A DNA stretch of 64,000 bases, taken from a virus. Taxonomy: Duplodnaviria; Heunggongvirae; Uroviricota; Caudoviricetes. The first letter of the stretch is position 1, and every line of letters begins with the position of its first letter. The notes beneath the pieces are model-generated. The model searched no databases. It saw only the letters and a list, made by a program, of their open reading frames with translations, and was not told where the DNA came from. Positions 5,424 to 64,000 of the stretch are shown here, piece after piece. The stretch is from the IMG/VR virus record IMGVR_UViG_3300025765_000001, one strand, 5' to 3'. Position numbers and translations under genes: made by a program.

Positions 5424-6750
5424 CCTGCTTTCTAAAACCCATGAAAATCATGAGCCTCTAAAATCGCCCTCTTTCAAGGGCTAAACCTTGCTCCCTGCGA
5501 GCAGTTCTTGCAGGGAGACTTCGCCTCGGAGTTTTTCGCTCCGACACCAGATGTTGCCAACAAACTCTTTTAGGTCTGCCAGACGAACCTGTAATCCTGT
5601 GAGGACGACTTCAACATTGTCGTTCAGATGCTTCCACATTGACCATGAATGTACTTTGCGATTTCGGTACTTTTCTGCAAGAGTTCCCAAAACCAGTTCT
5701 TTCACTTTCTTTGCGTCAGCCTTATAGAATGACAACTTCTCGTTGTACCCAAGACCACGCCGACCTATCACGAAGGCGGCTGACTCATGGATACTTGTCT
5801 TGTGCATCCACCTGTACTTGTACTTGCCAATGATACTGGTGAACGCTGGATTTACTTTCTCGTACTGGATGCCGTTCTCCACACACTTGCGTTCCAGCAA
5901 AGTGATGAACTTCTTCCAGACAAAGTTGCTCTGCTTTCTCTTCCTCTTCTTGCTACCAACCTTGTCCTTGTCAAACTTCAAGTCCTCAAAAACGATCCCC
6001 TTGCCACGCTCCAGAGCGTAGCCGATGACCTTCTTGACCAAACAGCCAATGTCGTAGTTCCGCTTCTCCCTGCTGCCGTAAAGGATACGGTTGTTGATGA
6101 ATGTCTCGGTAGCGACCAAGTTACCGTCTGCGGCTACATCAGCCACGGCGATACGATCAGGGTTCGTATCCACGCCGATGACGCCGTTCTTGAAGGTCGT
6201 GGTGACTGGCGGCTCATCCACCTGAAAGTCAATAATGACCTTGAAGTGCGTCTCATCCTTCCTTTTGAGCCTGACGTTGTACGCCTGCCCACTCGCCAGC
6301 ATGATCTTCAACTCCTGCTGGTATTTGTCCGGCACAAACAACTTAAACGTCGCCCACTTCCTCGTCCCAACGGTGATGCGGAGCGTATCGTCTACGATCC
6401 TGATGTTGAGGTTGCCCTTCTGCGTCTTGTCGCCACGACAATAGATTTGGCTGTCTCGCCTCTTCAACCACTCGTCTTTCGTGATCGCACCGGCTTTCAT
6501 GTCTTCCCATGCTTTACGACCACCGAAAACTACTTTTTTGCCTTTGAGTCGGGTGTTGTACGCTTGAGCCTGAACTACGGCGTCGGATACCTGTCTGGTG
6601 TTCAACATCTGGTACTTGGCTTTTGCAGCCTTCCGCACGTCGTTGAACTCAAGTTTATTCTTTGAGAACCGACAGTACGAGAAGCGGACGCAGGACTGGA
6701 AATCTCTGATGAGTTGATCCAGTTCCGTGAATAGCCGCTTGAGTGAATAA
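5424..6750 (-). mobile_element. 5'-truncated IS200/IS605/IS607-family element (tnpB plus structured right end / omega-RNA region)
   Basis: TnpB ORF. A hairpin series overlaps the 3' end and ends ...GGGTTTTAGAAAGCAGG. No transposase and no recognisable left end; boundaries approximate. Confidence 0.7.
5481..6638 (-). CDS. tnpB: TnpB-family RNA-guided nuclease (N-terminally truncated)
   Basis: RuvC-I GVDTN, RuvC-II VFEDL, VNPAFTS, HESAAFVIGRRG. TnpB-like sequence (ELDQLIRDFQSCVRFSYCRF) continues in frame upstream to about 6730 with no start codon. Confidence 0.85.
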   Translation of the reverse strand: MRKAAKAKYQMLNTRQVSDAVVQAQAYNTRLKGKKVVFGGRKAWEDMKAGAITKDEWLKRRDSQIYCRGDKTQKGNLNIRIVDDTLRITVGTRKWATFKLFVPDKYQQELKIMLASGQAYNVRLKRKDETHFKVIIDFQVDEPPVTTTFKNGVIGVDTNPDRIAVADVAADGNLVATETFINNRILYGSREKRNYDIGCLVKKVIGYALERGKGIVFEDLKFDKDKVGSKKRKRKQSNFVWKKFITLLERKCVENGIQYEKVNPAFTSIIGKYKYRWMHKTSIHESAAFVIGRRGLGYNEKLSFYKADAKKVKELVLGTLAEKYRNRKVHSWSMWKHLNDNVEVVLTGLQVRLADLKEFVGNIWCRSEKLRGEVSLQELLAGSKV

Positions 6751-8706: not shown

Positions 8707-9261
8707 TCAATCCCGAATAATTGCGATTTTGCGTTCTGGCCTCATTCCGATAGTGTACCGTTCGGAGCATACATGATCGCAGTGAGCGAAGAGCTTCACC
8801 GTGAACTTAATTATATCAGGATGGGGTTGGTCATTGATAGAGAGAATTCTACCGATCAAGTGTATGCCTCGTTCGGCTTCTTCGTTGTGAATGGCAATCG
8901 TGATGATGTCGTTGACCAGGGTATTCGCCGCCATATCAATCAGTATTTTCATCAGCATCTCCTTCCGTGAGTACCCTTTTCCTGATGAGATGGGCCGTAG
9001 TTCAACACCGTGCCCAGGATCGGGCCGTTTGATAGTGCGTGGCTTGGGAAGGGGTTCGGGCTGGGTGACTTTTCTATAGCCGAGACTCACCAGAACTTCA
9101 AAGATTTCACTCCAGGTGGGGAAGGATCGGCGGTTGTTCTCCTTGTATTGTTGCATGGCGTTCATGAATACCAATTCTTCGTCTGTGTATTCCGGCTCGC
9201 CTGTAGCAGGATGGGGTTTTTGCGGTCCATTGCATCTCCTCCGAGAGAAGTGATCTCGCAT
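8707..9261 (-). CDS. Protein with Planctomycete-type conserved N-terminal domain
   Basis: EYTDEELVFMNAMQQYKENNRRSFPTWSEIFEVLVSLGYRKV matches a small domain I recognise from Planctomycetota proteins. Confidence 0.65.
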   Translation of the reverse strand: MRDHFSRRRCNGPQKPHPATGEPEYTDEELVFMNAMQQYKENNRRSFPTWSEIFEVLVSLGYRKVTQPEPLPKPRTIKRPDPGHGVELRPISSGKGYSRKEMLMKILIDMAANTLVNDIITIAIHNEEAERGIHLIGRILSINDQPHPDIIKFTVKLFAHCDHVCSERYTIGMRPERKIAIIRD

Positions 9262-9301
9262 AGATTATATCAAGACATGCACATAATTGTACTCCAGAAA
9301 T

Positions 9302-9339
9302 GAAAAAGGCCCCGACCTCTCTAACCTAGAGGCCGGGGC
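9302..9339 (-). terminator. Intrinsic terminator ending the ncRNA locus
   Basis: Minus strand GCCCCGGCCTCT..AGAGGTCGGGGC followed by CTTTTT. Confidence 0.7.
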
Positions 9340-9344
9340 GGTAT

Positions 9345-9537
9345 TGGGCAGGCGTTATGCGAGGCTGCAAGCATTCTCCGTTTAATCCGCACTGTGAGTC
9401 TGACATCGCCAGTGTGTTACCATTACACCACCCCCTCAGTAGTAGTAGTTGGGCGAAAGTGAGGGAGATCGAAATTGAATCGACATCCCGGCGAGCTTTG
9501 TTTTTAAGTGCGAACCTCGATTTCGCAGCCCTGCCCT
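9345..9537 (-). ncRNA. YrlA/Y-RNA-like RNA with permuted tRNA-like domain
   Basis: T arm GTCGA-TTCAATT-TCGAT (9484-9468); acceptor-like stem CTCCCTCA/TGAGGGGG closed by a loop; D arm GTGT-AATGGTA-ACAC; anticodon-like stem TCGCCGG/CTGGCGA; outer stems CGCACT/AGTGCG, GGCTGCGA/TTGCAGCC, GGGCAGG/CCTGCCC. Confidence 0.75.
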
Positions 9538-9585
9538 GAGTTTAACCTAGAGTGATAGCTTGACACTGCGTTTCCAGTGAGATGT

Positions 9586-9922
9586 AACGAGGCTTATGAC
9601 GCCCCGTTGCCTTCCAATCAGCCACCCCACGATAAGGGTTGAGGGAACAATCCGTGTTCCACAGCACCGTTCAGAGTGCCAGTCTATATCATTAGACGCT
9701 CAACCTTTCGAGACTATCCTAGTCTCTGCGGCCTTCCGTGGTTGCCATCCGTAGACTTCACCATCCTTGGTATGAGCATCCTCGCTCATTTGGGTTTGTG
9801 CCTGTCCTGGCCGAGCCATCCAACGCTCGCCGTTGAGCAATACCTTCCTTGGAAACGGTGGCCTTCCTAGCTCTACAAACCCTGCTCTCCAAAGCAGTCG
9901 TGGGGGCAGGAATCGAACCTGC
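9586..9922 (-). ncRNA. Circularly permuted tRNA-Met(CAT)-like RNA with 266-nt structured insert
   Basis: 3' half first: GCAGG-TTCGATT-CCTGC-CCCCACG-A (9922-9898). 5' half later: CGTGGGG-TG-GCT-GATTGGAA-GGC-A-ACGGGGC-GTCATAA-GCCTCGT (9631-9587). Confidence 0.7.
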
Positions 9923-10158
9923 ATATTCACCACACCAAAATGAAACTAAGCCTAAGCCTGTCACTCAATACACACTTGTCAGTGTGCTTCCCTAAAATAT
10001 CGTCCTTCGCCGAACTGTCTATAGTAATTTGCCAAGATCGGCGAATTGTTGTTTTGTTAGGGCTGGCGGCTGCCGCCGCCAGCCCCAGAGTCTAAGAATC
10101 CAAAGGCCCGTCCTCCCTCAGATTCTTCGACTCACAGATACGTCCAGGCCCACTCGAC

Positions 10159-10899
10159 CTAGACGGCTGTTCTTGTGATGAAGTCCCAGATTTCACGACC
10201 GATCTTGACCGGCGTGACATTCAGTTGGTTCGCCTCCTCACGAGCGGACTTCACCGCCTCGATCAGTTGACGAACACGAGCCAACATCAGGTTTTTCTTT
10301 TGTACGGGAATCGCCCCGCTGAACTTGATCGTGGTCCATTCGCCGATCTTCACGTCTTCCGTGAAGACCTCGACCTGGGCTGGATGCTTGTCGGTCGCCT
10401 CGGCCTTGACGTGGTTCTTCATCACCTTCTTGGTCTTGTTGGAGGTCGAAGGCTCCGACTTGAAACACGCCGCCGCTTCATCCCACTTCCAGGTCTCGGC
10501 GAGGTCCAGCGTTGGTAGATGCGAAAGGAAGGTCTGGATGTCCACCAACTGCTTCTCAAGGAACATCAAATGCGTCACCGGCACCTGTTCCTTGATGACC
10601 TTGCCATCTACCTTGATGTCCGCCTTGGCTTCGCAGTTGGCATAATCCTGCGTAGCCGTGCAGTCAAGTAGATCGGTCATCACTTCCGAGAAGGCGTCGA
10701 TGGCCTCCTTGAGGCTATATTGAATGTTTTTCTTCTCTGGCGGAAACGTCTCGCCGTCCTCGTTCAAAGGACGATACGTGCGGGTCAGGCCGTCGAACAG
10801 CGAGGCCTTCTGGATTTGCTTGTAGATCAAGTCCCGCTCCTTCTTCAAGCGAGACTTCTTCCCCGTCGTCACGGCTACTATCTGGCACAGCTTCGCCAT
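10159..10899 (-). CDS. Conserved uncharacterised protein (family MAKLxQIxAV...KFSGA; recalled as DUF7873-like, unverified)
   Basis: RTYRPLNEDGETFPPE, VPVTHLMFLEKQL, AEATDKHPAQVEV, WTTIKFSGA, VKSAREEAN: motifs of a family seen in Actinobacteria, Planctomycetes and phages. Confidence 0.8.
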   Translation of the reverse strand: MAKLCQIVAVTTGKKSRLKKERDLIYKQIQKASLFDGLTRTYRPLNEDGETFPPEKKNIQYSLKEAIDAFSEVMTDLLDCTATQDYANCEAKADIKVDGKVIKEQVPVTHLMFLEKQLVDIQTFLSHLPTLDLAETWKWDEAAACFKSEPSTSNKTKKVMKNHVKAEATDKHPAQVEVFTEDVKIGEWTTIKFSGAIPVQKKNLMLARVRQLIEAVKSAREEANQLNVTPVKIGREIWDFITRTAV

Positions 10900-11951: not shown

Positions 11952-12428
11952 ATGACCAGTCTAATTCGTCGTAACGACAAATTGTCTACGCTCCGAGAAG
12001 ATATCTTCTGGCCGCTGGAGCAACATTTCAACAACTTCTTCAACGAATTCTTCAAAGGGTCCAGCCTTCTCGACGGCGTTAAAGCCAGTTCTGGCTATCC
12101 ACGCATGGATGTGCTGGTAGAGGACGACTATCTAACCGTTAAAATTGCTGTGCCGGGACTCAGCAGAGATAATCTCAAGGTCGAAGTTCTTCCCGACCGC
12201 ATTCTACGAATCAGCGGCCAAATGTCCGAAGAATACCACTCGTCCAAAGACGCCAAAATGTATGTACAAGAACTCCGTAAAGGCCAGTTCTCTAGACAAC
12301 TCGCTCTGCCTGATTGGGTAGAAGGCGATCCGCAAGCAAGTCTCAAAGACGGTATCTTGAAACTCCAATGGAAGGTACAAGAACCAGCCAAAGAAGAAAC
12401 GAAACTGATCGAAGTGAAGGCAGAATAA
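11952..12428 (+). CDS. Small heat shock protein (Hsp20/alpha-crystallin family)
   Basis: YPRMDV, VPGL, LRISG, FSRQLALP, ASLKDGILK; strong AAGGAG RBS. Confidence 0.92.
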   Translation: MTSLIRRNDKLSTLREDIFWPLEQHFNNFFNEFFKGSSLLDGVKASSGYPRMDVLVEDDYLTVKIAVPGLSRDNLKVEVLPDRILRISGQMSEEYHSSKDAKMYVQELRKGQFSRQLALPDWVEGDPQASLKDGILKLQWKVQEPAKEETKLIEVKAE

Positions 12429-12620: not shown

Positions 12621-13073
12621 ATGAACTTCAAACTGTGGCTCGAAGCTCGATCCAAATGGCTCCCCTTCGAGGAACTTAACCCAACACAACAAGCTGCCGT
12701 CCTCCAAAGCACCAAAGGACTCCTCCCCCTCCACTGGCTCTACGATACCGACCGCTGGCGGCAACATGTCACCGACTACGCCCAACAACCCCAAGCCACC
12801 TTCGAGTTCAACGTCCAAACTATACCAACCCAACAACTCATCGACCGCTTCGCCAAATGGGATTGGACCGAAGATGTCCTAGATAAAAAAGATTGGCAGC
12901 GTATCAAGAAAATCATGAAACTCCCCCGCTGGCCCTACGTCTCCTTCCTCGCCCCTAACTTCAAAAGTATCGAAGAACCATTCTTTCACGGCGATGGCTA
13001 TCACAGAGTTTGGGCTGCTTATTTTAATAAGGAGCCAAGCATAGAAATCATCTACATCAGGAAAAAGAAATGA
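12621..13073 (+). CDS. ParB/Srx-like domain protein with N-terminal FKLWLE motif
   Basis: FHGDGYHRVWAA motif; N-terminus MNFKLWLE. Confidence 0.55.
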   Translation: MNFKLWLEARSKWLPFEELNPTQQAAVLQSTKGLLPLHWLYDTDRWRQHVTDYAQQPQATFEFNVQTIPTQQLIDRFAKWDWTEDVLDKKDWQRIKKIMKLPRWPYVSFLAPNFKSIEEPFFHGDGYHRVWAAYFNKEPSIEIIYIRKKK

Positions 13074-13690
13074 ACGATAAAGTCAAACAACGCCACGAAC
13101 TACGCCCCGCCAGCCGCTACACCCCAGATGTCAAATCCTGCCGAGGCTCCATTCCCGGTATCGCTAACGGTTGGTGCCATACCCTCGATGCCGCCGAATA
13201 CCAACGCCTAGCTTCCCTAGTCTCTAACGGCAATATCATCGAAATCGGTTCCTACGAGGGCCTCTCCCTCTACCATATCAAAGATATCTGTAAAGCTAAT
13301 AACGCCAAACTCTATTGCGTCGATTTCATCGCTTGGCCCAAATTAGTAGAAAATTGCGAAGCCTGGGGCATCCCTTTTATTAACAAGCCCTCCGTGGATG
13401 CCGCCCTCGATTTCCCCGACGACTTCTTCGATCTAGTCTATATCGACGCCGATCATCATAAGTCGGAGTGTGCCTGGGATATCTGGGCTTGGCTGCCGAA
13501 ACTCAAAAAGACCGGAACCATCTGCGGCCACGATTTTGATAACAAGAATGTCCGCAGGGCACTCAAGTACGTCTTCGGCACCATAGAACCGGATGTGATA
13601 AACGTAGGAGGGTTCGTGTGGTCGGTCACTAATCCACACGAAAAAGTGAAATGCTGGCCCGAACAGGCCAAGTATAATGATGCAAAGTGA
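13070..13690 (+). CDS. Class I SAM-dependent methyltransferase (Methyltransf_24-like)
   Basis: IEIGSYEGLS, FDLVYIDADH, LKKTGTICGHDF. Confidence 0.85.
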   Translation: MNDKVKQRHELRPASRYTPDVKSCRGSIPGIANGWCHTLDAAEYQRLASLVSNGNIIEIGSYEGLSLYHIKDICKANNAKLYCVDFIAWPKLVENCEAWGIPFINKPSVDAALDFPDDFFDLVYIDADHHKSECAWDIWAWLPKLKKTGTICGHDFDNKNVRRALKYVFGTIEPDVINVGGFVWSVTNPHEKVKCWPEQAKYNDAK

Positions 13691-61341: not shown

Positions 61342-64000
61342 ATGCCAATAGGTTATCCGCCGCTACCAGTATTTCCTTTAGCGTTGGACTCCGACAGAAC
61401 CCTATTTCTCGTTCACAACACAGCGGAGGCAGAACTAGCTGCCGACAATCAGCCGTGGGCCGAAGAAATTCAGGTTGTACCGGTGAACGCTGATGCTTCG
61501 GAGCAATGGGCGGACAACGGGTTTGCCAACCTAAACGGCGAACTATTCTACTATGATGCTGTAGAAAAAAATGGCTTTGGCAAGGTCTTTAAGCTCAAAC
61601 GGTGTGCTAGAAACCTGGGGGGCAAAAAGACACAATTCAACGCTGCTGGAAGGGGTAGTATCGTTAGAGGCTATGTTATAGCCGAACACCATAATCAAAT
61701 CGTTCAGGCGGTTTTGAACATCGAGGAGTTCGTTGGCAAGAACTTGTCAGAAGACCCGGAAACCATCGATTTCAAGATCAGGAACCTAGCTGACGAGCCG
61801 GATTGCATCGATGATCATGAGTGCCCAGATGTAACCTTTAACTTCCAGATAGTGGAAGAAGGAAGCGATAATTGCACAGGCACGCTGGCAAGGTACGATG
61901 TCGATGTACAGGGTAACTTCACTAGTTTTAGAATAGACTTCGGCGACGGCAACTTTACAACTTCGGAACAATCTGGAGAACACAGATACCCGCCTAATGC
62001 CACAATCGATCCCGTAGTAACCGTCTCGAACAACAAATGCGAGGTAGTTCAGACGCCTATCGAGCGAACCAACCCAGAGGAGCCGCCGAAAGCCGACAAG
62101 CCTGAGTTGTTCACGGTCCCGATTCCAGAGATTGTAATACCGCCGTTTGTGACACCGGACATTACAACCCCTGAAACGACGTTAACCACGCCGCCAATTG
62201 TGTTGCCCTGCATAAGTGGCACCACTGGTCAAACCGACATTACGATCCCGTCAATAATTCAGATCGACCCACCGATCCCCACAGTCATCAGTATAAGCAT
62301 AGTTTTGCCTACGCTTACTCCAATCAGTTTGGTTGTGCCAGAGATTACGCCAATCTCGGTAACGGGGCCTCAATTCAGCCCTATCACCATTGCTGGGCCA
62401 AGCTACAGTCCGTTTAGCATCAGTGGGCCAAGCTACAGTCCGTTCAGCATCAGTGGGCCAAGTTATAGTCCGTTCTCGATCACAGGACCGAGTTATTCTC
62501 CGTTCTCGATCACAGGACCGAGCTATTCTCCGTTCTCAATTACAGGGCCTACTTACACCCCGTTCTCGATCACAGGACCAGAATACAGTCCGTTCAGCAT
62601 TACAGGACCGAGTTATTCTCCGTTCTCGATCACAGGGCCGGAGTACAGTCCGATTAGCATCACAGGGCCGACGTATACTCCGTTCTCGATTACAGGACCA
62701 GAATACAGTCCATTCAGCATCACAGGGCCGGAGTACAGTCCGATTAGCATCACAGGGCCGACGTACACCCCGTTCTCGATCACAGGACCAGAATACAGTC
62801 CATTCAGCATCACAGGGCCGGAGTACAGTCCGATTAGCATCACAGGGCCGACGTATACTCCGTTCTCGATCACAGGACCAGAATACAGTCCATTCAGCAT
62901 CACAGGGCCGGAGTACAGTCCGATTAGCATCACAGGGCCGACGTACACCCCGTTCTCGATCACAGGACCGGAGTACAGCCCGTTCTCGATCACAGGGCCG
63001 GAGTACAGTCCGATTAGCATCACAGGGCCGACGTATACTCCGTTCTCGATCACAGGACCGGAGTACAGCCCATTCTCGATCACAGGGCCGGAGTACAGTC
63101 CGATTAGCATCACAGGGCCGACGTATACTCCGTTCTCGATCACAGGACCGGAGTACAGCCCGTTCTCGATCACAGGGCCGGAGTACAGTCCGATTAGCAT
63201 CACAGGGCCGACGTACACTCCGTTCTCGATCACAGGACCGGAGTACAGCCCATTCTCGATCACAGGACCGGAGTACAGCCCATTCTCGATCACAGGACCG
63301 GAGTACAGCCCATTCAGCATCACAGGACCGACGTATACTCCGTTCTCGATCACAGGACCGGAGTACAGCCCGTTCTCGATCACAGGGCCGGAGTACAGTC
63401 CGATTAGCATCACAGGGCCGACGTACACTCCGTTCTCGATCACAGGACCGGAGTACAGCCCATTCTCGATCACAGGACCGGAGTACAGCCCATTCTCGAT
63501 CACAGGACCGGAGTACAGCCCATTCAGCATCACAGGACCGACGTATACTCCGTTCTCGATCACAGGACCGGAGTACAGCCCGTTCTCGATCACAGGGCCG
63601 GAGTACAGTCCGATTAGCATCACAGGGCCGACGTACACTCCGTTCTCGATCACAGGACCGGAGTACAGCCCATTCTCGATCACAGGACCGGAGTACAGCC
63701 CATTCTCGATCACAGGACCGGAGTACAGCCCATTCAGCATCACAGGACCGACGTATACTCCGTTCTCGATCACAGGACCGGAGTACAGCCCGTTCTCGAT
63801 CACAGGGCCGGAGTACAGTCCGATTAGCATCACAGGGCCGACGTACACTCCGTTCTCGATCACAGGACCGGAGTACAGTCCATTCAGCATCACAGGACCA
63901 GAATACAGTCCATTCAGCATCACAGGACCGGAGTACAGCCCATTCTCGATCACAGGGCCGGAGTATGCCCCGTTTTCAATTACAGGACCGGCATACAGTC
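61342..64000 (+). CDS. Fibre-like virion protein with ([10 protein letters not shown])n repeats; runs off the window end (not in ORF track)
   Basis: ATG 61342 [26 protein letters not shown]; AEHHN motif; IDFGDG; open through 64000. Confidence 0.85.
62371..64000 (+). repeat. 30-bp coding tandem repeat, about 54 units, with 90-bp and 210-bp higher-order periods
   Basis: Consensus GAGTACAGYCCRTTCTCGATCACAGGRCCG; an ACGTA-starting unit recurs every 90 bp (62671-63211), and the ACGTATACTC variant every 210 bp (63121, 63331, 63541, 63751). Confidence 0.95.

What the first reader, a model, noticed from the sequence alone, without database searches (positions are those of the whole stretch)
9586..9922. 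Circularly permuted tRNA-Met(CAU)-like gene with a 266-nt multibranched insert between the acceptor strands
The 3' half (T arm GCAGG-TTCGATT-CCTGC, acceptor strand CCCCACG, discriminator A) lies upstream of the 5' half (CGTGGGG, D arm, 7-bp stem with loop GTCATAA: U33, anticodon CAT, A37). The 7-bp acceptor stem is perfect. The insert is densely structured: a GGGTTTGT/ACAAACCC domain, ATGAGC/GCTCAT, GAGACTA/TAGTCTC, and a four-way junction closed by GGTTGAG/CTCAACC with three hairpins. Permuted tRNA genes are known from red algae and a few archaea. Unlike YrlA, this one keeps an anticodon loop and is broken at the variable loop. Inference: RNase P and 3' processing could release a two-piece tRNA-Met mimic plus the insert as a separate RNA.
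Basis: partly seen in the sequence, partly recalled or inferred. Interest (0 to 1): 0.85.

Follow-up and report, generated by a model that had tools for sequence, protein, structure and literature searches.

The report
Phage tRNA-mimic RNA carrying CsrB-like array
The back-to-front tRNA shape is real, but it is one domain of a roughly 660-base non-coding RNA of a widespread, apparently undescribed family that follows the unknown gene DUF7873, and in this giant phage its acceptor loop has grown into a 266-base array of hairpins that look like binding sites for the regulator CsrA.

Summary
Observation confirmed on the minus strand at the stated coordinates. T arm 9922-9906, acceptor 3' strand 9905-9899, A9898, 266-nt insert 9897-9632, acceptor 5' strand 9631-9625, D arm 9622-9609, CAU hairpin 9607-9587. 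The rejoined halves score as tRNA-Met in ARAGORN. The stems covary in seven homologues.

It is not a tRNA gene. It is module 1 of a ~660-nt RNA (about 9966-9303) with a second permuted tRNA-like module (9494-9406) and a terminator. The RNA sits just downstream of a DUF7873 gene. The same gene-RNA pair occurs in Planctomycetota, Actinomycetota, Cyanobacteria, Chloroflexota and many phages. Earlier agents of this scan found the family on other DNA. I found nothing in print.

Two features are special here.
- The CAU hairpin is confined to a small sub-clade. CAU is invariant there, but U33 and R37 are not kept.
- The acceptor cap is 4-13 nt in most relatives. Here it is an array of GGA-loop hairpins whose density matches E. 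coli CsrB. It is the densest GGA[AU]G stretch in the 436-kb genome. The phage has two csrA genes, and five planctomycete genomes tested have 5-11 CsrA matches each.

CsrA binding and excision of the insert by RNase P are inferred, not shown.

The parts
10159..10899 (-). DUF7873 protein gene (246 aa), directly upstream of the RNA on the same strand
   Evidence: Pfam PF25283, 327 bits. 1575 homologues at 50-89% identity. AF2 model pLDDT 86.7, with no informative match to solved structures.
9994..10021 (-). Sigma-70-like promoter candidate (TAGACA, 16 nt, TATTTT). The 5' end of the RNA is not mapped.
   Evidence: Consensus scan only, 9 of 12 matches.
9962..9966 (-). P1 5' strand GAGUG. It pairs with CACUC at 9554-9550 and so encloses module 1.
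   Evidence: RNAalifold helix 1, 100% paired in 7 sequences, nearly invariant.
9928..9938 (-). P2 5' strand UUGGUGUGGUG. It pairs with 9584-9574.
   Evidence: Duplex predictions in all 7 sub-clade sequences, with different sequences in each. Between window and L018, U-G/U-G/G-U become C-G/C-G/G-C.
9906..9922 (-). Module 1 T arm GCAGG-UUCGAUU-CCUGC
   Evidence: The second stem pair is C-G in 4 sequences, U-A in 2 and G-C in 1.
9898..9905 (-). Module 1 acceptor 3' strand CCCCACG plus 'discriminator' A9898
   Evidence: 7 perfect pairs with 9631-9625. 3 of the 6 counted pairs change on both sides. A at this position in 56 of 67 family loci.
9632..9897 (-). 266-nt cap insert: an array of short hairpins with GGA in their loops
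   Evidence: GGA[AT]G occurs 7 times against 0.70 expected, and GGA[AT]GG 6 times against 0.16. It is the top window of the whole genome on both strands. GGA-loop hairpins: 5 of 9 here and 6 of 7 in L018, against about 1 in shuffles. Density is like E. coli CsrB. Caps elsewhere have a median of 9 nt.
9637..9705 (-). Four-way junction GGUUGAG/CUCAACC with three hairpins. It is the best conserved part of the insert.
   Evidence: Kept in L018, with G-C changed to A-U in the closing stem.
9625..9631 (-). Module 1 acceptor 5' strand CGUGGGG
9609..9622 (-). Module 1 D arm (GCU/GGC, loop GAUUGGAA)
   Evidence: RNAalifold helix 4, 90.5% paired.
9587..9607 (-). Hairpin H, 7 bp, loop GUCAUAA (the 'anticodon' CAU)
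   Evidence: Present only in the sub-clade. CAU is invariant in 7 of 7. 4 of 6 stem pairs change on both sides.
9574..9584 (-). P2 3' strand CAUCUCACUGG
9550..9554 (-). P1 3' strand CACUC, inside the conserved block CUAUCACUC
9406..9494 (-). Module 2, a second permuted tRNA-like module. Stem strand 9494-9488, T arm 9484-9468, acceptor 9467-9461 with 9437-9431, 23-nt cap, D arm 9428-9414, stem strand 9412-9406.
   Evidence: A covariance model built from 23 sequences outside the sub-clade hits 9498-9401 at 42.7 bits, E 1.2e-11. It is the only strong hit in the window. Helices 9-12 covary.
9303..9339 (-). Intrinsic terminator, 12-bp stem then UUUUU
   Evidence: helix 15, 5 pairs with changes on both sides.

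Best explanation
The feature is module 1 of a ~660-nt non-coding RNA on the minus strand, from about 9966 to 9303. The RNA belongs to the family of tandem tRNA-mimic RNAs encoded just downstream of DUF7873 genes.

Shown:
- The RNA folds into two circularly permuted tRNA-like modules. In each, the T arm comes first, then a 7-bp acceptor stem sealed by a cap loop, then the D arm.
- Each module is tied into the rest of the RNA by a long-range helix where a tRNA would have its anticodon stem.
- In a small sub-clade that includes this phage, module 1 carries an extra hairpin with an invariant CAU in its loop.
- In this phage lineage alone (window and L018), the cap of module 1 has expanded from a few bases to 179-266 nt. 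The expansion is an array of hairpins with A(N)GGA loops plus a conserved four-way junction.

Inferred:
- The RNA works as a protein-binding tRNA mimic, most likely with DUF7873. It presents tRNA elbows and sealed ACC-like acceptor ends.
- The phage has grafted a CsrB/RsmZ-like CsrA-binding array onto it. One abundant, stable transcript would then also titrate CsrA, either the host's many paralogues or the phage's own two.

It is not a gene for a decoding tRNA.
For: Family membership:
- DUF7873 lies directly upstream.
- The same two-module RNA follows DUF7873 in every sub-clade contig fetched.
- My pattern finds at least one capped module in 135 of 160 DUF7873 loci from genomes and viral contigs.
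- A module-2 covariance model built without the sub-clade hits the window at E 1.2e-11.

Structure:
- RNAalifold predicts 83 pairs, 42 of them with compensatory changes. 95.4% of cells are paired, against 83% in shuffles and 40% when partners are slid.
- P2 duplexes are predicted in all 7 sequences.
- Module 1 rejoined in silico scores as tRNA in ARAGORN for 7 of 7 sequences, as tRNA-Met in 5.

Insert:
- GGA[AT]G is enriched about 10-fold and GGA[AT]GG about 40-fold over the genome frequency.
- It is the densest such stretch in 436 kb on both strands, and the only dense one that is non-coding.
- GGA sits in the loops of 5 of 9 MFE hairpins in the window and 6 of 7 in L018. Shuffles give a mean near 1 and a maximum of 4 and 3.
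- Scored the same way, E. coli CsrB gives 6.0 GGA per 100 nt and 9 of 14 hairpins, against 4.5-5.1 per 100 nt here. The heptamers are the same kinds: NNGGAUG, GGAAG, GGACG.
- CsrA binds A(N)GGA in hairpins and is conserved in Planctomycetes (PMC10729762). CsrB and CsrC sequester CsrA through multiple sites (PMC4682653).
- The phage has two csrA genes. Five planctomycete genomes with DUF7873 have 5-11 CsrA matches each.
Against: - There are no expression, binding or processing data.
- The GGA array is known from only two related sequences.
- The repeat GGAWGGC also resembles the 3' half of the module's own D arm (UGGAAGGCA). The array could therefore have arisen by internal duplication and could bind something other than CsrA.
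- Rfam's Csr/Rsm models give only a sub-threshold CsrC hit (10.4 bits, E 3.2).
- The MFE z-score of the window insert is modest at -2.1. L018 gives -4.1.
- The DUF7873-RNA partnership rests on gene adjacency only. Some DUF7873 genes lack the RNA (L091, L108/L109, L191, L192).
- The fold of DUF7873 gives no hint of RNA binding.
Confidence: 0.55

Rival explanations
1. RNase P cuts 5' of C9631, and a 3' activity cuts after A9898. This releases the 266-nt insert as a separate RNA. What is left is a two-piece tRNA-Met(CAU) mimic held together by the acceptor stem and P2. It may receive CCA and even be charged.
For: - The 7-bp acceptor stem plus 5-bp T stem is the RNase P determinant.
- M. smegmatis YrlA, which has a 7-bp 'acceptor stem', is cut by RNase P RNA in vitro and is cleaved and given CCA in vivo (PMC4201824).
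- U lies at position -1 before the acceptor 5' strand in both window and L018.
- A is at the discriminator position in 56 of 67 module-1 copies. NCCA starts the cap in 11 of 67 (module 1) and 18 of 67 (module 2), against about 1 expected.
- CAU is invariant in the sub-clade, and 5 of 7 rejoined sequences score as tRNA-Met.
Against:
- U33 and purine-37 are not conserved, and two members have 8-nt loops.
- There is no initiator signature: 1-72 is paired, and the 31-39 pair is C-G.
- The phage already has two ordinary tRNA-Met genes.
- No CCA is encoded after A9898.
Confidence: 0.2
2. It is a classical Y RNA (YrlA type) that works with the phage's own Ro60/TROVE protein.
For: - It has the same topology as YrlA: T arm before D arm, with the acceptor stem capped.
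- The phage encodes a TROVE-domain ORF.
- 3 of 5 DUF7873-bearing planctomycete genomes have a TROVE match.
Against: - No match to any Rfam family, YrlA included if it is there as earlier notes state, even at E up to 10.
- The TROVE gene is about 228 kb away, whereas YrlA genes lie next to Ro60 (PMC4201824).
- The RNA's constant neighbour is DUF7873.
- No terminal Ro-binding stem formed by the 5' and 3' ends is evident.
- 2 of 5 carrier genomes show no TROVE match, though these genomes may be incomplete.
Confidence: 0.08
3. The GGA-loop hairpins are not CsrA sites. They are tandem duplications of a D-arm-like unit, or sites for another protein such as DUF7873 itself, or simply tolerated expansion in a permissive loop.
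For: - The repeat GGAWGGC resembles the module's D-loop/D-stem UGGAAGGCA.
- Caps are insertion hot spots with unrelated cargo in other lineages, for example L030 (68 nt, no GGA) and L089 (131 nt of other repeats).
Against: - Stems differ between window and L018 while the GGA loops are kept, which argues for selection on loop presentation.
- Motif, loop context and density match CsrB.
- csrA genes are present in both the phage and the tested planctomycete genomes.
Confidence: 0.2
4. It is a permuted (two-piece) tmRNA gene, or a true permuted tRNA gene of the red-alga/archaeal kind, or a broken tRNA pseudogene.
For: Permuted order with the T arm and acceptor 3' strand upstream, as in two-piece tmRNA genes. 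This comparison rests on my own knowledge.
Against: - ARAGORN and the tmRNA-clan Rfam models find nothing here, while the phage's real tmRNA is found elsewhere at 114.8 bits.
- No tag frame is conserved: there is a 2-nt indel in the only candidate.
- No bulge-helix-bulge motif is present at P2.
- Covariation across many loci excludes a pseudogene.
Confidence: 0.02

Closest known systems
YrlA (Y RNA-like A), the Ro60/Rsr-bound tRNA mimic of bacteria and phages (Chen et al. 2014, PMC4201824; structure preprint 10.1101/312249)
   Same: Both are circularly permuted tRNA-like domains with the T arm 5' of the D arm and an acceptor stem closed by a loop. Both join the rest of the RNA through a helix at the anticodon-stem position. 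Both occur in bacteria and phages. The 7-bp acceptor variant of YrlA is an RNase P substrate.
   Different: This RNA has two such modules in one ~400-660-nt transcript. Its constant neighbour is DUF7873, not Ro60. No Rfam match was found. No Ro-binding terminal stem was seen. This copy also has a CAU hairpin and a 266-nt cap insert.
CsrB/CsrC/RsmY/RsmZ-type CsrA-sequestering sRNAs
   Same: Both are arrays of short hairpins that present A(N)GGA, often GGAUG or GGAAG, in their loops at about 5 per 100 nt. E. coli CsrB scored the same way gives 6.0 per 100 nt.
   Different: This array is not a free-standing sRNA. It is embedded in the acceptor loop of a tRNA mimic. It is phage-borne and in a planctomycete setting. 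It has no sequence homology to the Rfam Csr/Rsm families. CsrA binding is untested.
The DUF7873-associated tandem tRNA-mimic RNA noted repeatedly by this scan on other genomes (for example e1-2703945, e1-3598349). I found it in no paper.
   Same: Same gene neighbour, same two-module architecture, same conserved blocks (CAGACU-type repeats, GGAUUAAACGG, terminator). The module-2 covariance model hits at E 1.2e-11.
Two-piece (permuted) tmRNA
   Same: Permuted gene order and a tRNA-like acceptor/T domain.
   Different: This RNA has no tag ORF, no pseudoknot series and no ARAGORN or Rfam hit. The phage has a standard tmRNA elsewhere.

Membership tests
DUF7873-associated tandem tRNA-mimic RNA (undescribed family) | Encoded directly downstream of a DUF7873 gene on the same strand | tested here: met
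   DUF7873 is at 10899-10159(-) and the RNA at about 9966-9303(-). 135 of 160 DUF7873 loci have a capped module downstream.
DUF7873-associated tandem tRNA-mimic RNA (undescribed family) | Two permuted tRNA-like modules (T arm, capped 7-bp acceptor, D arm) in one unit ending at a terminator | tested here: met
   The module-2 covariance model built from 23 other members scores 42.7 bits, E 1.2e-11.
YrlA / bacterial Y RNA | Match to the YrlA covariance model (Rfam) | tested here: not met
   cmscan of 8800-10700 at E up to 10 lists no YrlA or Y RNA hit. The gathering-threshold scan of the window found nothing. That Rfam holds YrlA as RF02553 comes from earlier notes, and I did not verify it.
YrlA / bacterial Y RNA | Gene adjacent to a Ro60/Rsr (TROVE) gene | tested here: not met
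   The phage's TROVE ORF is at about 153.3-154.2 kb, roughly 228 kb from the RNA. The neighbours here are DUF7873 and an unknown 184-aa ORF.
YrlA / bacterial Y RNA | Ro60-binding stem formed by the RNA's 5' and 3' ends | tested here: inconclusive
   The consensus fold shows no terminal 5'/3' stem. P1 closes module 1 only. The ends are not mapped.
YrlA / bacterial Y RNA | Binding to Ro60 in vivo | not testable with these tools
   Needs immunoprecipitation.
Genuine (permuted) tRNA gene, tRNA-Met | Cloverleaf that scores as tRNA when the halves are rejoined | tested here: met
   ARAGORN at default threshold calls tRNA-Met(CAT) for window, L018, L020, L190 and L021. L024 and L188 are called tRNA with odd loops.
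Genuine (permuted) tRNA gene, tRNA-Met | Canonical 7-nt anticodon loop with U33 and purine 37, conserved among homologues | tested here: not met
   The loops are GUCAUAA, AUCAUCU, AUCAUUU, AUCAUUC, ACCAUUU, GAUCAUCA and AAUCAUCA. Only the window's own loop is near-canonical.
Genuine (permuted) tRNA gene, tRNA-Met | Free, aminoacylatable CCA 3' end after processing | not testable with these tools
   No CCA is encoded after A9898. Processing is unknown.
CsrB/Rsm-type CsrA sponge | Multiple A(N)GGA motifs presented in hairpin loops | tested here: met
   The window insert has 12 GGA, and my A[N]?GGA scan counts 11 matches. 5 of 9 MFE hairpins have GGA loops (6 of 7 in L018), against about 1 in shuffles. 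Values are comparable to E. coli CsrB.
CsrB/Rsm-type CsrA sponge | Cognate CsrA present | tested here: met
   Two phage csrA genes. 5-11 CsrA matches in each of 5 planctomycete genomes.
CsrB/Rsm-type CsrA sponge | High-affinity binding and sequestration of CsrA | not testable with these tools
   Needs gel shift or co-purification.
Two-piece tmRNA | Tag reading frame with resume codon, and detection by ARAGORN or the tmRNA models | tested here: not met

The most novel reading that the evidence does not exclude
The phage uses a tRNA-shaped scaffold as a processing cassette. Host RNase P and a 3' tRNA-processing nuclease would excise the 266-nt GGA-hairpin array as a free CsrB-like sponge that rewires the planctomycete host's expanded CsrA network. 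The remaining two-piece module, with a CAU loop, A73 and an opened acceptor end, would act as a tRNA-Met/fMet decoy together with DUF7873. This would be the first Csr-type sponge in this phylum or in a phage, a new biogenesis route for one, and a first functional handle on the DUF7873 RNA family.
Probability: 0.12. Interest if true: 0.88.

Novelty: new variant of a known kind. Interest (0 to 1): 0.68.

Why it matters
tRNA mimicry by non-coding RNAs is known from tmRNA and the Ro60-bound YrlA. Here the same permuted design appears twice in one RNA. Its partner gene is different, strongly conserved and functionally unknown. The pair is spread over several bacterial phyla and many phages, and I found no description of it in print.

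This copy shows that the sealed acceptor loop can carry cargo. The cargo looks like a CsrA sponge in a phage that brings its own csrA genes, and the planctomycete genomes tested hold up to 11 CsrA matches. If that holds, it links two RNA-based control systems and gives a direct experimental entry to both. The questions would be whether CsrA binds, whether RNase P releases the array, and what DUF7873 does with the tRNA-like heads.

Tried and rejected
- ARAGORN and Rfam on the native sequence found nothing at gathering threshold. At E up to 10 there was only a partial tRNA hit driven by the T arm (20.4 bits) and a CsrC fragment (10.4 bits).
- Near and distant DNA searches in GenBank phages, and exact-pattern scans of viral contigs for the T arm/acceptor and for a conserved 21-mer, found nothing.
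- Single-protein locus searches with the two flanking ORFs in viral contigs found nothing. The profile search worked.
- A gapped pattern for the insert's four-way junction gave 21 metagenome hits and 1 viral hit. All lack the RNA context and are chance matches. The GGA-array variant is therefore known only from the window and L018.
- No paralogue of the RNA exists elsewhere in the 436-kb genome.
- The other GGA-dense stretches of the genome are coding.
- Coding reading of the 77-aa ORF 9700-9933(-): rejected, because L018 differs by indels that are not multiples of three.
- tmRNA reading: rejected (see rivals).
- DUF7873 fold: Foldseek against the PDB gave nothing at E <= 0.001. VIA-align gave a best Z of 9.3 on helical bundles only. 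The profile search against PDB sequences gave nothing. The ESM Atlas returned only DUF7873 itself.
- No YrlA-like hit lies next to the phage TROVE gene at E <= 0.01.
- Literature searches for DUF7873, permuted tRNA-like phage RNAs, and phage or planctomycete Csr sponges returned nothing relevant.

Full report
**What is there.** The window is the last 64 kb of a 436-kb IMG/VR virus record. The record carries 62 tRNA genes and a tmRNA. The finding lies on the minus strand in a gap free of convincing genes, between two minus-strand ORFs: DUF7873 (10899-10159) and an unknown 184-aa ORF (9261-8707).

- T arm 9922-9906
- acceptor 3' strand 9905-9899
- A9898
- 266-nt insert 9897-9632
- acceptor 5' strand 9631-9625
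- D arm 9622-9609
- a 7-bp hairpin with loop GUCAUAA at 9607-9587

ARAGORN and Rfam report nothing in the native sequence.

**Homologues.** The upstream protein matches Pfam DUF7873 at 327 bits. It has more than 1500 homologues, and the closest named ones come from Planctomycetota. A Logan contig encoding an 89%-identical DUF7873 (L018) carries the whole RNA downstream. The pairwise alignment already shows compensatory changes in three stems:
- T stem: C-G to U-A
- acceptor stem: G7-C66 to A-U
- CAU hairpin: G-C to A-U

Contigs for the next closest proteins (63-68% identity: L020, L190, L021, L024, L188) all have the same RNA directly after the gene, but with a cap of only 6-10 nt between the acceptor strands.

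Profile-based locus searches show the gene-RNA pair in Planctomycetota, Actinomycetota (Streptomyces, Nocardia, Nonomuraea), Cyanobacteria, Chloroflexota, Deinococcales and many viral contigs. A deliberately strict pattern finds at least one capped tRNA-like module downstream in 135 of 160 loci. Some DUF7873 genes lack it (L091, L108/L109, L191, L192).

**Architecture.** RNAalifold on the seven sub-clade sequences gives one consistent fold:
- P1 (GAGUG 9966-9962 with CACUC 9554-9550) encloses module 1.
- Module 1 has T arm, acceptor, D arm and hairpin H.
- Three nested long-range helices then lead to module 2: stem 9494-9488 with 9412-9406, T arm 9484-9468, 7-bp acceptor 9467-9461 with 9437-9431, 23-nt cap, D arm 9428-9414.
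- The fold ends with the block GGAUUAAACGG and a terminator (9339-9303).

Counting pairs gives 95.4% standard pairs, against 83.2% in shuffles and about 40% when partners are slid. 42 of 83 pairs change on both sides, with 0 of 500 shuffles reaching that. Seven related sequences can exceed shuffles without structure, but the slid controls and the per-helix pattern argue the same way.

A further helix, P2, joins the stretch just upstream of the module-1 T arm (9938-9928) to the stretch just after hairpin H (9584-9574). It is predicted in all seven sequences, with unrelated sequences in each.

A covariance model of module 2 built from 23 members outside the sub-clade hits the window at 9498-9401 with 42.7 bits, E 1.2e-11.

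**The CAU hairpin.** In most family members the strand after the module-1 D arm pairs straight back to the strand before the T arm. That is the YrlA-like topology with no anticodon loop. Only the sub-clade nearest this phage has hairpin H.

Its loop always contains CAU: GUCAUAA, AUCAUCU, AUCAUUU, AUCAUUC, ACCAUUU, GAUCAUCA, AAUCAUCA. Loop length, position 33 and position 37 are not kept. Other lineages have a hairpin at the same place with unrelated loops. The conserved CAU is therefore a real, selected loop motif. It does not behave like an anticodon loop under tRNA constraints, and the initiator signatures are absent.

Topologically, either H or P2 can be read as the anticodon arm and the other as a long variable arm. 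In family context, P2 is the counterpart of the family's anticodon-stem-like helix and H is an addition.

**The insert.** Cap loops have a median of 9 nt over 221 modules. The window's 266 nt and L018's 178-179 nt are the largest genuine ones. The insert is not random filler.
- GGA occurs 12 times (4.0 expected from the genome). GGA[AT]G occurs 7 times (0.70 expected). GGA[AT]GG occurs 6 times (0.16 expected).
- It is the densest GGA[AT]G window in the whole genome on either strand. The other dense stretches are coding.
- In the MFE folds, 5 of 9 hairpin loops (window) and 6 of 7 (L018) contain GGA. Dinucleotide shuffles give a mean near 1 and a maximum of 4 and 3.
- Between the two sequences the stems differ while the loops keep GGA. 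Only the 3' four-way junction (9705-9637) is conserved in sequence, with a G-C to A-U change in its closing stem.
- E. coli CsrB scored by the same script gives 6.0 GGA per 100 nt and 9 of 14 GGA-loop hairpins, with the same heptamer types. The inserts give 4.5 and 5.1 per 100 nt.

CsrA binds A(N)GGA in hairpins and is conserved in Planctomycetes (PMC10729762). CsrB and CsrC act by offering many such sites (PMC4682653). The phage encodes two CsrA proteins. Five DUF7873-bearing planctomycete genomes have 5-11 CsrA matches each. That the host of this phage is a planctomycete is itself inferred, from the closest DUF7873 relatives.

No other family member sampled carries GGA cargo in a cap. Pattern scans found no further relatives of this insert.

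**How it most likely works.**

Shown:
- a conserved, structured RNA with two permuted tRNA-like heads, genetically linked to DUF7873
- a lineage-specific CAU hairpin
- a lineage-specific array of GGA-loop hairpins in the module-1 cap

Inferred:
- The RNA acts as a protein-bound tRNA mimic, and DUF7873 is the obvious candidate partner. Its predicted fold is confident (pLDDT 86.7) but matches nothing informative.
- The sealed acceptor ends imitate a tRNA 3' end. At family level, the base after the module-1 acceptor strand is A in 56 of 67 loci. The cap starts with NCCA in 11 of 67 (module 1) and 18 of 67 (module 2), roughly ten times chance.
- The phage copy additionally binds CsrA through its insert.

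It is open whether the insert stays in place or is cut out. M. smegmatis YrlA, which like these modules has a 7-bp acceptor stem, is cleaved by RNase P and receives CCA (PMC4201824).

**Comparison with known systems.** The closest described relative in design is YrlA. Membership fails on the points I could test: there is no Rfam match, and the RNA is not adjacent to Ro60. The phage's TROVE ORF is about 228 kb away. TROVE is detectable in only 3 of 5 carrier genomes.

The insert works like, but is not homologous to, Csr/Rsm sponges. tmRNA, red-alga-type permuted tRNA genes and a pseudogene are rejected.

**Prior notes of this scan.** After I had found the DUF7873 link, the scan's notebook showed that earlier agents had reported the same DUF7873-linked tandem tRNA-mimic family on other genomes, with YrlA as closest known and no publication found. 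My results agree with them. The CAU hairpin sub-clade and the CsrB-like cap insert are not in the notes I saw.

**Verdict.** The object is a new variant of the tRNA-mimic RNA kind, with an unusual and testable chimeric addition.

Noticed in passing
window 5481-6638 (-): 385-aa ORF with a Cas12f1/TnpB-like TNB domain (25.5 bits, just under Pfam's 26.3 cut-off) and PHROG transposase hits. It may be a TnpB-type element in the phage. Its guide-RNA region was not examined.
   Followed up: no
window 10060-10086 (-): A GC-rich hairpin lies just after the DUF7873 stop codon and has no U tract. It is conserved in L018. It could be a processing or stabilising element between the gene and the RNA.
   Followed up: no
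window 9637-9705 (-): The four-way junction inside the insert is itself cloverleaf-shaped, with a 7-bp closing stem and three hairpins. It has no T-loop motif and no tRNA score.
   Followed up: partly
window 9950-9966, 9545-9565, 9395-9405 (-): A CAGACU/CAGGCUUAG-like motif recurs three times in the RNA: in the 5' leader, after P2, and after module 2. It recurs at the same places in bacterial homologues and may be a protein-binding repeat.
   Followed up: no
G000:C1:240884-241039 (+) and 249140-249295 (-), outside the window: Two phage csrA genes (90 and 54 bits).
   Followed up: partly
G000:C1:153323-154177 (+), outside the window: A TROVE/Ro60-like domain sits in a 654-aa open frame. No Y RNA was detected within about 1.5 kb at E <= 0.01.
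   Followed up: partly
G000:C1:191389-191459 and 219242-219319, outside the window: ARAGORN calls tRNAs with anticodons TCA and CTA, which would read UGA and UAG. This hints that the phage may recode stop codons. ORFs in the window look normal under table 11.
   Followed up: no
G000:C1:325378-325520 (-), outside the window: A second, short tmRNA-like match (143 nt, 55 bits) exists besides the full tmRNA at 100789-101150 (tag GETPAYRMAA).
   Followed up: no
L089:2490 onward (module 2 cap); L030 and L028 (module 1 caps): Other family members carry unrelated cargo in their caps. L089 has 131 nt of GUCUUGGGA-type repeats forming a long hairpin. L030 and L028 have 59-68-nt AT-rich inserts. The cap is a general insertion hot spot.
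   Followed up: partly
L019 versus L020: The NCBI MAG contig L019 lacks about 110 nt of module 2 that the otherwise identical Logan contig L020 has. This is either an assembly artefact or a natural deletion variant.
   Followed up: no
window 63235-63940 (+): This is one of the GGA-densest stretches of the genome on the plus strand (13-14 GGA per 266 nt). It lies at the very end of the contig. I did not check whether it is coding.
   Followed up: no
window 11952-12428 (+), 13070-13690 (+): Hsp20 and a Methyltransf_24 gene lie close to the DUF7873-RNA pair. The same methyltransferase neighbourhood is seen on contig L017, whose DUF7873 is 87% identical.
   Followed up: no
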